A DNA stretch of 64,000 nucleotides from Escherichia coli. Lineage in GTDB: Bacteria > Pseudomonadota > Gammaproteobacteria > Enterobacterales > Enterobacteriaceae. Shown in pieces: positions 115-1,868 of the stretch. Within the stretch, counting starts at the first letter, position 1. Each line of letters opens with the position of its first letter. The position numbers and the translations under genes are program-made. Below the pieces are notes generated by a model. It searched no databases and was not told where the DNA came from. It saw only the letters and a list, made by a program, of their open reading frames with translations. The stretch lies in assembly GCF_016026235.1 (NCBI RefSeq), contig NZ_CP065613.1; one strand, given 5' to 3'.

Positions 115-349
115 TCTACGTAGGATCAATGAGTTACATAGCAGTGCATTGTGAAACTTTGCTGACGTTGAATGGTCGTCTTTGCAACCACTGGCAGAAA
201 ATGGATAGCCGTAGATTGCGTTGAGCACAGAAACAGCACAGGGTAATCGTCTACCTGGTCCTGTAAAGGAGGTTGTTGCCACACAAGCTAAAGCGCTTGA
301 CCTGCCCCCAGTATTCGGTACAACTGTCAGTTAGTAATGGACTGACCCC

Positions 350-1828
350 GTTACTTTATTCGTACCCCTTATAATGGGGTGTTAGCCAGCCAGACCCGGC
401 ATGATTACTGCCCCCAGTCGTCCATGATCCGGGGGGTGATGTCACCGGGTCTGGTGGGGCGCTGGTAACCGCTAATAGGGGTCAGGTCAGGCACTTTTGC
501 CGGGACCGTCTGTAACGTGGATGCCGGTACCTGCTCCCCGTGGTTATCTGGTTAACCCATATACAAGGGAGACAGAATGACCGAATCCAGCGATTACGAA
601 TCCGTCCAGGTCTTTATCGGCGTTGATGTCGGTAAAGATACGCATCACGCTGTTGCCATTAATCGTTCAGGTAAACGCCTGTTCGATAAAGCATTACCCA
701 ACGACGAAAACAAACTCAGGTCGCTAATATCTGACCTGAAACAACATGGTCAGATACTGCTGGTTGTTGATCAGCCAGCTACCATCGGTGCGTTACCTGT
801 CGCCGTTGCCCGCTCAGAAGGAGTCCTTGTCGGATACCTCCCTGGACTGGCCATGCGCCGCATAGCCGACTTACACGCCGGTGAAGCTAAAACTGATGCT
901 CGTGACGCTGCCATCATTGCCGAAGCTGCCCGTACCCTGCCTCACGCGCTACGCACGCTGAAACTGGCTGACGAGCAAATCGCCGAACTCTCCATGCTCT
1001 GCGGCTTCGATGATGATCTTGCCGCACAGACAACGCAGGCCAGCAACCGTATCCGCGGCCTTCTGACCCAGATACATCCGGCACTGGAGCGCGTTCTCGG
1101 TCCGAGACTTGAGCACCCGGCGGTACTCGATCTTCTCCAGCGATATCCCTCACCAGAAAAACTCGCTTCGCTGGGTGAGAAGAAGCTGGCAGCCCAGCTC
1201 TGCAAACTTGCGCCTCGTCTGGGTAAACGCCTTGCAGCAGACATAGCTCAGGCACTGGCCGAACAAACCGTCGTCGTTCCCGGCACGAATGCCGCTGCCG
1301 TAGTACTGCCACGTCTGGCACTCCAGCTCATCACGCTGCGTAAGCAAAGAGACGAGGTGGCGCTTGAGGTAGAACAGCGAGTTCTTGCTCACCCTCTTTA
1401 CCCGGTCCTGACCAGTATGCCCGGAGTCGGTGTCAGGACCGCAGCCAGACTCCTCACCGAGGTCGCCTGCCGCGCCTTCGCCTCTGCCGCACATCTCGCT
1501 GCTTATGCTGGCCTTGCGCCGGTAACTCGGCGATCCGGCTCGTCAATACGCGGTGAGCATCCCTCGCGACGGGGTAATAAAGCTCTCAAACGGGCGTTGT
1601 TCCTGTCGGCCTTCGCCGCGCTCAGGGATCCGCTCTCCAGGGCTTACTACACCCGCAAAATGAGTCAGGGAAAACGACACAATCAGGCGCTTATCGCCCT
1701 GGCGAGACGACGCTGCGACGTTCTGTTCGCCATGATGCGCGACGGGACTTTTTATACCCCGCAGGGGTCATAACATGCTTGACAACTTAATAGGGGCACC
1801 CCCCGGTAGACGATCCTGCCCTATAGTT
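350..1828 (+). mobile_element. IS110-family insertion sequence, boundaries approximate
   Basis: DEDD-type transposase ORF preceded by a ~225-bp structured non-coding leader; 11-bp 'ggactgacccc' present at 339..349 and 1829..1839 suggests the limits; no terminal inverted repeats, as expected for this family. Confidence 0.45.
577..1773 (+). CDS. IS110-family transposase (DEDD/RuvC-like N-terminus, 398 aa)
   Basis: N-terminal 'VFIGVDVGKDTHHAVAI' is the typical IS110 DEDD start motif; C-terminal 'MPGVGVRTAARLL' helix-hairpin-helix-like segment; GC-rich relative to flanks. Confidence 0.85.
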   Translation: MTESSDYESVQVFIGVDVGKDTHHAVAINRSGKRLFDKALPNDENKLRSLISDLKQHGQILLVVDQPATIGALPVAVARSEGVLVGYLPGLAMRRIADLHAGEAKTDARDAAIIAEAARTLPHALRTLKLADEQIAELSMLCGFDDDLAAQTTQASNRIRGLLTQIHPALERVLGPRLEHPAVLDLLQRYPSPEKLASLGEKKLAAQLCKLAPRLGKRLAADIAQALAEQTVVVPGTNAAAVVLPRLALQLITLRKQRDEVALEVEQRVLAHPLYPVLTSMPGVGVRTAARLLTEVACRAFASAAHLAAYAGLAPVTRRSGSSIRGEHPSRRGNKALKRALFLSAFAALRDPLSRAYYTRKMSQGKRHNQALIALARRRCDVLFAMMRDGTFYTPQGS

Positions 1829-1868
1829 GGACTGACCCCACCCCGGTAGACGATCCTGCCCTATAGTT
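1801..1868. repeat. Two direct copies of a 28-bp unit (ccccggtagacgatcctgccctatagtt) at 1801..1828 and 1841..1868
   Basis: Exact 28-bp duplication read directly from the sequence, immediately after the transposase stop. Confidence 0.9.

What the first reader, a model, noticed from the sequence alone, without database searches (positions are those of the whole stretch)
339..1868. The IS110-family element is flanked by copies of a short repeat, as if inserted into a repeat array
The 11-mer 'ggactgacccc' occurs at 339..349 and 1829..1839, and a 28-bp unit is duplicated exactly at 1801..1828 and 1841..1868. The upstream flank 'tagtaatggactgacccc' also resembles the downstream 'tagttggactgacccc'. 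IS110-family elements usually make little or no target duplication and often target repeated sequences, so this arrangement may reveal the element's target and exact ends.
Basis: seen in the sequence. Interest (0 to 1): 0.4.

Follow-up and report, generated by a model that had tools for sequence, protein, structure and literature searches.

The report
ISEc20 inside a duplicated IS3 end
An ordinary RNA-guided insertion sequence (ISEc20, IS110 family) has landed in the C-rich tip of a dead IS3-family element whose first 40 bp were already tandemly duplicated, so the same short sequences lie on both sides of it without being a target duplication or a repeat array.

Summary
The repeats are real: TGGACTGACCCC at 338-349 and 1828-1839, and an exact 28-mer at 1801-1828 and 1841-1868, period 40.

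The element between them is ISEc20. Its body is 350-1798 and differs by 3 nt from other E. coli copies. Those copies share nothing with this site beyond a C tract on each side.

The repeat is neither an array nor a target duplication. It is the first 40 bp (inverted-repeat tip plus leader) of a truncated IS3-family element, now 338-349 plus 1801-1900, next to yecA. IS-free E. coli genomes carry it as one unit or as an exact two-unit tandem. The window is the two-unit allele with ISEc20 in unit 1, at CTGACCCC^ACCCCGG.

ISEc20's left end encodes an IS621-type bridge RNA with two stem-loops supported by covariation. Its target loop reads ACUGCCCCC and CCGGGGGGUG, which specifies a C tract. That fits this IR tip and the flanks of every other copy examined.

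Two points are unresolved. The A that interrupts the tract in all empty sites is missing from both junctions. The exact core (CC or CA/AC) is blurred by C-tract instability.

This is ordinary biology that is now well explained, and of modest interest.

The parts
338..349 (+). Left 12 bp (TGGACTGACCCC) of 40-bp unit 1. This is the tip of the IS3-family left inverted repeat. ACTGACCCC (341-349) is the left target half-site.
   Evidence: It is identical to the IRL of the intact IS3-family copy L123 2501-2512. ACTGACCCC matches the bridge-RNA left target guide ACUGCCCCC at 8 of 9 positions.
350..1798 (+). ISEc20 body (GTTACTTT...AATAGGGGCA), 1449 bp. One or two of the flanking C residues also belong to the recombination core.
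   Evidence: 2231 of 5426 E. coli genomes carry it, annotated as ISEc20; about 22 distinct sites share exactly GTTAC...GGGGC(A/C); 3 nt differences from the common copy.
365..379 (+). 5' hairpin of the predicted bridge RNA (CCCC-UUAUAAU-GGGG).
   Evidence: fold. In the relatives the stem changes on both sides, for example CCUCGAUAAUCGAGG and CCUUGAUCCUCAAGG.
390..454 (+). Stem-loop 1, the target-binding loop. Its outer stem is 390-399 paired with 445-454.
   Evidence: (I13). In helix 1, 7 pairs have compensatory changes and 98.4% of cells are paired.
407..415 (+). Left target guide (LTG), ACUGCCCCC, in the same sense as the top strand of the left flank.
   Evidence: It matches the left flank of the rtcB-family site at 9 of 9 positions (L005) and the window's 341-349 at 8 of 9. 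The C5 is invariant in 43 relatives.
429..438 (+). Right target guide (RTG), CCGGGGGGUG, complementary to CACCCCCCGG (1797-1806).
   Evidence: I14: 10 of 10 complementary. GGGGGGUG is nearly invariant in relatives. All right flanks start with a C tract.
457..538 (+). Stem-loop 2, the donor-binding loop.
   Evidence: In helix 2, 7 pairs have compensatory changes, up to 16 sequences per pair.
475..481 (+). Left donor guide (LDG) core, AUAGGGG, identical to the right-end sequence ATAGGGG at 1790-1796.
   Evidence: The guide and the right end change together (ATAGGGAC in two lineages, ATAGAGGC in Arthrobacter). Only 4 of 2000 shuffles reach the observed match.
512..520 (+). Right donor guide (RDG), GUAACGUGG. 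Its reverse complement is CCACGTTAC, the left-end start GTTAC preceded by C-A-C.
   Evidence: Invariant in 43 relatives. It matches a right-end/left-end junction GGGGCA-C-GTTAC, as seen in L012, L022, L027 and L067.
577..1773 (+). ISEc20 transposase (bridge recombinase), 398 aa, intact.
   Evidence: It differs at 2 aa from the copy annotated WP_001358663.1.
1779..1784 (+). TTGACA -35 box in the right end. In a circle junction holding one C it lies 17 nt from TACTTT (352-357).
   Evidence: Read from the sequence. TTGAC(A/G) is conserved at the same place in all relatives, and the -10 is TACTAT in many of them. Promoter function is inferred by analogy with IS621 (PMC11208160).
1799..1804 (+). 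C6 tract at the right junction. It holds the core copy and the start of the right target.
   Evidence: The empty site has A+C4 here.
1801..1827 (+). The rest of 40-bp unit 1 (CCCCGGTAGACGATCCTGCCCTATAGT).
   Evidence: It is colinear with the IS-free two-unit alleles L001 and L003.
1828..1867 (+). 40-bp unit 2, intact (TGGACTGACCCCACCCCGGTAGACGATCCTGCCCTATAGT). It holds the only remaining CCCCACCCC in the window.
1868..1900 (+). The remainder of the IS3-family remnant: the leader and the first 14 nt of orfA (ATG at 1887). Homology to intact copies ends at 1900.
   Evidence: L123, L124.

Best explanation
Between yecA and the Hhe defence island, E. coli carries the stump of an IS3-family element: its left inverted repeat TGGACTGACCCCACCCCGG..., the leader, and the first 14 nt of orfA. 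In some lineages the first 40 bp of this stump became tandemly duplicated. In the lineage of this window, a copy of ISEc20 then inserted into the C-rich tip of the first unit, between GGACTGACCCC and (A)CCCCGGTAGACG.

ISEc20 is an IS110-family element that works like IS621. Its 227-bp non-coding left end encodes a bridge RNA with two internal loops. The donor loop (AUAGGGG.. and GUAACGUGG) recognises the joined right and left ends of the excised circle. The target loop (ACUGCCCCC and CCGGGGGGUG) recognises a run of C residues, with a weak preference for CTG before it and G after it. The DEDD/serine recombinase exchanges strands at a short core inside the C tract.

- Shown: the identity and ends of the IS, the empty-site alleles, the IS3 origin of the unit, the conserved RNA structure, and donor-guide covariation.
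- Inferred: RNA guidance of this particular insertion, the circle junction and its promoter, and the order of events.
For: Identity and ends of the IS:
- The sequence matches annotated ISEc20 in 2231 E. coli genomes. Alignments to other copies stop at window 334-346 on the left and 1802-1818 on the right.
- About 22 distinct sites share exactly GTTAC...GGGGC(A/C), flanked only by C runs.

Empty sites:
- L002 has one unit. L001 and L003 have two exact units and no IS.
- At least 11 further genomes have contiguous left and right flanks by coordinates.

The unit is an IS3-family end:
- L123 2501-3730 has the IRs TGGACTGACCCC and GGGGTCAGTCCA and an annotated orfAB with programmed frameshift.
- OrfA hits the NCBIfam IS3 model, below cut-off because only 94 aa were scanned.

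Bridge RNA:
- The fold has a z-score of -2.55.
- Over 43 relatives, 96.7% of cells are paired, 16 pairs show compensatory change, 0 of 500 shuffles reach the observed value, and slid controls pair at 27-50%.
- LDG and right end covary.
- RTG is 10 of 10 complementary to 1797-1806.
- LTG matches the rtcB-family flank at 9 of 9 positions and this flank at 8 of 9.

Target rarity:
- CCCCACCCC occurs only once more in the 64 kb, on either strand, and that copy is unit 2.

Architecture rules are taken from PMC11208160 and PMC11208158.
Against: - The insertion is not a clean insertion into the known empty allele. All 222 genomes with the site have CCCC-A-CCCC, but the A is in neither junction of the window.
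- Recognition of the bases left of the C tract is weak in relatives: 86 of 236 matches against 75 expected, with 182 of 5000 shuffles as high. The ACTG match may therefore be partly luck.
- No other E. coli complete genome and no metagenome contig has ISEc20 in this IS3 end, although the unit occurs in 732 records. This is a rare, near-cognate hit rather than a preferred target.
- Rfam has no family matching the left end.
- No RNA or circle has been observed.
Confidence: 0.8

Rival explanations
1. The 11/12-bp direct repeat TGGACTGACCCC is a target-site duplication made by the IS on insertion.
For: It directly abuts the left end, and it recurs 30 bp beyond the right end.
Against: - The right copy is not adjacent to the IS; 1799-1827 lies between them.
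- The same two copies, 40 bp apart, exist in IS-free genomes L001 and L003.
- No other ISEc20 site shows a flanking repeat other than C runs.
Confidence: 0.02
2. The 28/40-bp repeat belongs to the IS, whose right end lies at about 1840 or 1868. The element would then carry a terminal repeat.
For: IS110 elements have no inverted repeats to mark their ends.
Against: - About 22 E. coli or phage sites and about 60 relatives end at ATAGGGGCA followed by a C run and then unrelated sequence.
- The 28-mer is contiguous with the left flank in empty sites.
Confidence: 0.02
3. The 40-bp tandem duplication was produced by ISEc20 activity, either by insertion or by imprecise excision. The IS-free two-unit genomes would then be excision products.
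For: The occupied site differs from the empty site (the A is missing), so ISEc20 events here are not perfectly conservative. The two units are identical, which suggests a recent origin.
Against: - Two-unit alleles keep the A in both units, whereas the occupied unit has lost it.
- At least 21 genomes from diverse sources carry two units, while none of 5426 carries the IS here.
- The duplication boundaries (TAGT|TGGA) do not coincide with the insertion point.
Confidence: 0.05
4. The insertion went into an unsampled variant of unit 1 in which the interrupting A had already mutated to give a pure C8-C9 tract, which is a fully cognate target. It did not go into the CCCCACCCC allele.
For: - Poly-C variants exist. 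The K-12 relic of the same IR reads TGGACTG-C7-GG.
- At the DUF6645 site, C9 and C10 alleles coexist with CCCACCCCC.
- At the L033 site, the allele closest to the occupied one is AACCCCCC.
- A 2-nt CC core then reconstructs C8 exactly.
Against: None of the genomes with this locus has a C8 or C9 allele, and unit 2 of the window itself keeps the A.
Confidence: 0.4

Closest known systems
IS621 (IS110 family, E. coli) and its bridge RNA
   Same: - The recombinase has the same two domains.
- The non-coding left end lies upstream of the gene.
- The RNA has two stem-loops with internal loops. The 5' sides are in the sense of the left target and left donor, and the 3' sides are antisense to the right target and right donor.
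- A -35 box in the right end faces a -10 in the left end.
- The element has no inverted repeats.

   Different: - ISEc20 is 398 aa. Its target is a homopolymeric C tract rather than a REP-derived ATCAGGCCTAC-type site.
- The core is C-rich (CC or CA/AC), not CT, and cannot be placed exactly.
- The LDG positions that would pair with the core are not conserved.
- The guides are almost invariant across distant hosts instead of diversifying.
IS4321/IS5075 (IS1111 subgroup), which insert into the 38-bp terminal inverted repeats of Tn21-family transposons (from my own knowledge, not tested here)
   Same: An IS110-superfamily element sits inside the terminal inverted repeat of another mobile element, in one orientation.
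   Different: - For IS4321/IS5075 the transposon IR is the regular target. Here the IS3-family IR is a one-off among 732 records holding the unit.
- The IS1111 subgroup carries its guide RNA downstream of the transposase gene, whereas ISEc20 carries it upstream.
ISPpu9/ISPpu10 of Pseudomonas putida (IS110 family, REP-targeting; PMC12288879 and bioRxiv 10.64898/2026.03.19.712850, abstracts seen)
   Same: IS110-family elements that are found inside a repeated host sequence because their RNA recognises it.
   Different: Their targets are genuine dispersed REP arrays. Here the repeat is a local 2-copy duplication of an IS end.

Membership tests
IS110 family (bridge-RNA recombinase elements) | Transposase with an N-terminal DEDD (RuvC-like) domain and a C-terminal Tnp/Transposase_20 domain | tested here: met
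   Pfam PF01548 at 6.9e-49 (residues 14-168) and PF02371 at 7.1e-22 (residues 277-358). NCBIfam NF033542 at 239 bits against a cut-off of 140.
IS110 family (bridge-RNA recombinase elements) | No terminal inverted repeats | tested here: met
   The ends are GTTACTTTATT and TAATAGGGGCA. The repeat finder reports no inverted repeat pairing 350-380 with 1770-1800.
IS110 family (bridge-RNA recombinase elements) | The non-coding end encodes a structured RNA with two internal-loop stem-loops | tested here: met
   30 pairs, 96.7% paired, 16 with compensatory change, and 0 of 500 shuffles as high. No Rfam family matches.
IS110 family (bridge-RNA recombinase elements) | Donor loop guides match the element's own right and left ends and covary with them | tested here: met
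   LDG AUAGGGG equals right-end ATAGGGG, and the variants ATAGGGAC and ATAGAGGC change together in guide and end. The reverse complement of RDG contains CGTTAC or CACGTTAC.
IS110 family (bridge-RNA recombinase elements) | Target loop guides match the flanks of natural insertions | tested here: met
   The C5 of LTG and the G6 of RTG fit the C runs on both sides of about 22 E. coli sites and about 60 relatives. The match is 9 of 9 at the rtcB-family site and 8 of 9 plus 10 of 10 here. Beyond the C run the signal is weak.
IS110 family (bridge-RNA recombinase elements) | Conservative insertion that duplicates only a 2-nt core | tested here: inconclusive
   Six pairs of occupied and empty sites give apparent duplications of 1-5 C. 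The C tracts vary between genomes (C5-C7, C8-C9, C7-C63). At this site the target A is lost.
IS110 family (bridge-RNA recombinase elements) | Excised circular intermediate with a junction promoter | not testable with these tools
   There is only sequence-level support: TTGACA-N17-TACTTT if one C joins the ends, and right-end/left-end-like abutments GGGGCAC-GTTAC in L012, L022, L027 and L067.
ISEc20 (named element) | Near-identity over the whole element to copies annotated as ISEc20 | tested here: met
   99.4-99.7% identity over about 1470 nt. There are 3 nt differences in 1449 compared with L004-L006. ISfinder itself could not be consulted.
IS3 family (identity of the repeated unit) | Imperfect terminal inverted repeats starting TG...; orfA-orfB with programmed frameshift; length about 1.2-1.5 kb | tested here: met
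   L123 2501-3730 is 1230 bp. IRL TGGACTGACCCCACCCCGGTAGAC and IRR TGGACTGACCCCACGCCCGTAGAC match at 22 of 24 positions. The CDS is annotated 'IS3 family transposase, programmed frameshift'.
Repeat array (REP/BIME-like, CRISPR-like or minisatellite) | Three or more regularly spaced copies, or dispersed copies serving as a repeat family in their own right | tested here: not met
   There are only two units here and at most two in the alleles I read. Elsewhere the unit occurs as the end of IS3-family copies or as solo relics.
Target-site duplication | A direct repeat that abuts both ends, is absent from the empty site in duplicate, and recurs (as a length) at other copies | tested here: not met
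   See rival 1.

The most novel reading that the evidence does not exclude
The ISEc20 clade carries a bridge RNA that is hard-wired for homopolymeric C tracts; its guides are nearly invariant from Enterobacteria to Burkholderiales and Microbacteriaceae. Its visits may also rewrite the target. On this reading, bases that interrupt or border the tract (the A here; A or AA at two other sites) are replaced, so that the flanks come to read C4-5 and C6-7, the lengths written in the guides. Insertion and excision would then create or lengthen hypermutable poly-C tracts, as in the rtcB-family and DUF6645 genes.
Probability: 0.15. Interest if true: 0.55.

Novelty: new member of a known kind. Interest (0 to 1): 0.27.

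Why it matters
- It settles the annotation of this locus: ISEc20 at 350-1798, and a duplicated IS3-family stump at 338-349 plus 1801-1900. It also removes a false lead (a repeat array or target duplication).
- It gives a worked example of reading an IS110 element's target from its own left end. ISEc20 is present in about 40% of complete E. coli genomes, including O145 and O157 prophages. Its target loop predicts insertion into C tracts, which are themselves mutable sequences inside genes.
- The invariance of the guides across phyla and the non-conservative look of the junctions are small open points for people working on bridge recombinases.

Tried and rejected
- Rfam scan of 1-2600 at E<=1: nothing.
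- ARAGORN: no tRNA called, although 60-115 is a tRNA-like 3' fragment.
- Literature search for 'ISEc20': only inventory mentions.
- Search for the left junction in metagenome contigs: none.
- Gapped searches for empty sites of the L032, L022 and L027 insertions: none.
- Counting two-unit alleles with a 60-nt junction query failed, because the tool joins overlapping pieces from single units.
- I tried to fix the core dinucleotide with six pairs of occupied and empty sites. No single model fits all of them, whether CC with a two-C circle junction or CA/AC with a one-C junction, because the C tracts vary.
- Models in which the left and right half-sites are read in registers offset by one base reproduce each observed junction on one strand. 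They do not explain the loss of the A from both junctions without invoking repair.
- My recollection that the 88-codon ORF at 1787-2053 (minus strand) starts like a type I restriction R subunit was not supported by Pfam or NCBIfam.
- Covariation between the four LTG bases upstream of C5 and the flanks is weak.
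Full report
**Observation.** The sequence is as described. TGGACTGACCCC lies at 338-349 and 1828-1839. CCCCGGTAGACGATCCTGCCCTATAGTT lies at 1801-1828 and 1841-1868, with a start-to-start spacing of 40 bp. Between them is one long ORF (577-1773, 398 aa) with the two IS110-family domains. It scores above cut-off for NCBIfam 'IS110 family RNA-guided transposase'.

**Which IS, and where it ends.**
- A megablast of 300-1900 against 5426 complete E. coli genomes finds the element in 2231 of them, annotated 'IS110-like element ISEc20 family transposase'.
- No genome covers more than 92% of the query. Alignments begin at window 334-346 and stop at 1802-1818.
- I aligned junctions from five E. 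coli loci and 30 viral contigs found with the first 30 nt of the left end. Together these represent about 22 distinct sites. The shared sequence is exactly GTTACTTT...TAATAGGGGC(A/C), corresponding to window 350-1798.
- That shared sequence is preceded by 3-5 C and followed by 4-8 C, after which the flanks are unrelated.
- The window's copy differs from the common one at 3 of 1449 positions, none of them in the non-coding left end.
- The 28-mer and the 11-mer are therefore flank, not IS.

**Empty sites.**
- The left flank (1-349) and the right flank (1805-2300) are adjacent in many E. coli genomes, between yecA and the hhe defence gene.
- Strain FDAARGOS_943 (L002) has a single unit: ...TAGTAA TGGACTGACCCCACCCCGGTAGACGATCCTGCCCTATAGT TTGAG...
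- Strains ECCWS199 and CP8-3 (L001, L003) have two exact tandem units and no IS.
- By coordinates, at least 11 genomes have the contiguous two-unit form, and 21 rows start at query base 1. Several others have one unit.
- The window is the two-unit allele with ISEc20 in unit 1. The flanking 12-mers are the starts of units 1 and 2, not a duplication made by the IS.

**What the unit is.**
- Hits to the unit elsewhere lie next to 'IS3 family transposase' genes.
- In strain LH13-b (L123) the unit begins a 1230-bp element at 2501-3730. That element has terminal inverted repeats TGGACTGACCCCACCCCGGTAGAC and TGGACTGACCCCACGCCCGTAGAC and an orfAB with programmed frameshift. orfA starts at the ATG that is window 1887.
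- In strain 203740 (L124) a longer part of this IS3-family element sits at the same yecA-proximal site.
- In the window, homology stops at 1900.
- The 'repeat' is thus the left inverted-repeat tip plus leader of a truncated IS3-family element, and its first 40 bp are duplicated.
- K-12 carries a solo relic of the same end between yfjM and rnlA. It reads TGGACTG-C7-GGTAGACGATCC....

**How the site was chosen.**
- IS110 elements use a bridge RNA encoded in the non-coding end. In each of two internal loops, the 5' side has the sense of the left half-site plus core (8-9 nt). The 3' side is antisense to the core plus right half-site (4-7 nt). The top strand is cut just after the core (PMC11208160 and PMC11208158).
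- The ISEc20 left end (350-576) folds into a 5' hairpin and two stem-loops.
- The scan of one genome per species returned 80 loci that encode transposases 72-94% identical to this one (best segment). They come from Burkholderiales, Microbacteriaceae, Micrococcaceae and others.
- All of these loci with a readable left end have Cn|GTTAC... on the left, and nearly all with a readable right end have ...TTGAC(A/G)-N-ATAGGGGCA-Cn on the right.
- On an alignment of 43 distinct left ends, the outer and upper stems are 96.7% paired. Sixteen pairs show compensatory changes. None of 500 shuffles reaches the observed values, and slid controls pair at only 27-50%.
- The unpaired loop segments are the most conserved parts.
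  - Loop 1 holds nnnnCCCCC (window ACUGCCCCC, 407-415) and CCGGGGGGUG (429-438).
  - Loop 2 holds (R)AUAGGGG.. (475-481) and GUAACGUGG (512-520).
- The loop-2 5' segment equals the right-end sequence ATAGGGG. It changes with the right end in three lineages (ATAGGGAC twice, ATAGAGGC once; 4 of 2000 shuffles as good).
- The loop-2 3' segment is antisense to (CA)CGTTAC, which is the left-end start preceded by the right-end tip.
- The loop-1 segments specify a C tract.
  - ACUGCCCCC matches the left flank of the rtcB-family insertion at 9 of 9 positions, and window 341-349 (ACTGACCCC) at 8 of 9.
  - CCGGGGGGUG is 10 of 10 complementary to window 1797-1806.
- Recognition outside the C run is weak. 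After stripping the run, the four upstream bases match the guide only slightly more often than shuffled pairs do (86 against 75 of 236; 182 of 5000 shuffles as high).
- CCCCACCCC occurs nowhere else in the 64 kb on either strand except in unit 2. Before insertion, the two IS3 IR tips were therefore the best near-cognate sites in the neighbourhood.
- The hit is nonetheless exceptional. The unit is present in 732 records and ISEc20 in 2231 genomes. No other complete genome and no metagenome contig shows this junction.

**Donor junction and promoter (inferred).**
- The right end carries TTGACA (1779-1784), and the left end starts GT-TACTTT. In many relatives the -10 is TACTAT.
- With one C between GGGGCA and GTTAC the spacing is 17 nt.
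- The same one-C junction is what the reverse complement of the RDG (CCACGTTAC) would pair with.
- It is also seen where an ISEc20-type right end abuts sequence resembling the element's own left end, in L012, L022, L027 and L067.

**What does not fit.**
- All genomes with the empty site read GGACTGA-CCCC-A-CCCC-GGTAG. There is no exact hit to a C8 or a C9 version.
- The window reads GGACTGA-CCCC|IS...GGGGCA|CCCCCC-GGTAG. The target's A is in neither junction.
- Five other pairs of occupied and empty sites give the following:
  - rtcB-family gene: C7/C9/C63 becomes C5|IS|A C7.
  - DUF6645 gene: alleles CCCACCCCC, C9 and C10 exist, and the occupied site is C5|IS|A C6.
  - L010 site: C8/C9 becomes C4|IS|A C7.
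  - L009 site: C5-C7 becomes C4|IS|A C6-7.
  - L033 site: AACACCCC or AACCCCCC becomes (two A missing) C5|IS|A C6.
  
- A 2-nt CC core reproduces the DUF6645 (C9) and L010 (C9) sites exactly. A CA/AC core with a one-C junction reproduces the length of the window's tract. Neither fits all sites.
- The flanking runs stay close to the lengths written in the guides (C5 and G6), whatever the target was.
- The tracts vary between genomes, and even between copies at one site.
- A1798 is C in some copies at the same site (L031 against L035, L032 against L034, and L008).
- I cannot separate three explanations: slippage, insertion into unsampled poly-C alleles, or repair after recombination at a near-cognate site.

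**Verdict.**
It is wrong about the nature of the repeat, which is a duplicated IS3 end and not an array, and wrong in any implication that the insertion created a duplication.
- The mechanism is the known bridge-RNA mechanism. ISEc20 is a member whose target loop specifies a C tract.
- Interest is modest. The residual curiosity is the non-conservative look of the junctions and the invariance of the guides across phyla.

Noticed in passing
window 4342-5109: An IS1 copy (IRL GGTGATGCTGCCAACTTACTGAT at 4342, a 167-aa InsB-like ORF at 4591-5094) interrupts the hhe (DUF4011 anti-phage) gene. It has a 9-bp direct repeat AGTAAATCG on both sides. Another IS1 end lies at about 12865.
   Followed up: partly
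window 60-115 (minus strand): This is the 3' part of a tRNA-Leu-like gene (GGTACCCGGAGCGGGACTTGAACCCGC...). It is not called by ARAGORN. It lies next to yecA, where K-12 has leuZ, so it is probably the att-type boundary of the Hhe island.
   Followed up: no
window 302-312 and 408-418: CTGCCCCCAGT in the native left flank is identical over 11 nt to the bridge-RNA left-target-guide region. It is a perfect left half-site 37 bp upstream of the insertion and was not used. It has no C tract to its right.
   Followed up: partly
window 246-258 and 1802-1814 / 1842-1854: ATCGTCTACCTGG is a 12-of-13 inverted match to CCCGGTAGACGAT of the IS3 inverted repeat, about 80 bp upstream of the IRL. It may be an old inverted IS3-type end, or it may be chance.
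   Followed up: no
L039, L040, L042 (E. coli RtcB-family pseudogenes): The ISEc20 target in this gene is a poly-C tract of 9, 7 and 63 C in three genomes, all annotated as frameshifted. It is a hypermutable tract inside a coding sequence.
   Followed up: partly
L125 1501-1543 (K-12 MG1655, between yfjM and rnlA in CP4-57): A solo relic of the same IS3-family left end, with the two A of the tip absent (TGGACTG-C7-GGTAGACGATCCTGCCCTATAGTTGGAG). As a sequence it would be a near-perfect ISEc20 target.
   Followed up: partly
L043-L122: Elements with transposases 72-82% identical to ISEc20, the same ends, and almost identical bridge-RNA guides occur in Burkholderiales, Microbacteriaceae, Micrococcaceae and various MAGs. 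This implies recent spread across phyla with a fixed target specificity.
   Followed up: partly
L012, L022, L027 (viral contigs) and L067 (Cupriavidus): In these copies the right end is followed by C-GTTA(C) instead of a C tract. In L027 and L022 the sequence after it resembles a diverged left end of the element. These look like tandem or donor-like right-end/left-end junctions. No empty site was found for them.
   Followed up: partly
window 1787-2053 (minus strand): An 88-codon ORF starts in native sequence at 2053 and runs into the IS3 stump at 1900. It is probably the 5' fragment of a gene truncated when the IS3 element inserted or was deleted. It has no significant Pfam or NCBIfam family.
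   Followed up: partly
L019 (viral contig), flanks of its ISEc20 copy: The insertion lies in a cluster of ~20-bp GGGCAGCTCCTGCCCCACC(CC) repeats that contain the same CTGCCCCACCCC motif as the IS3 inverted-repeat tip.
   Followed up: no
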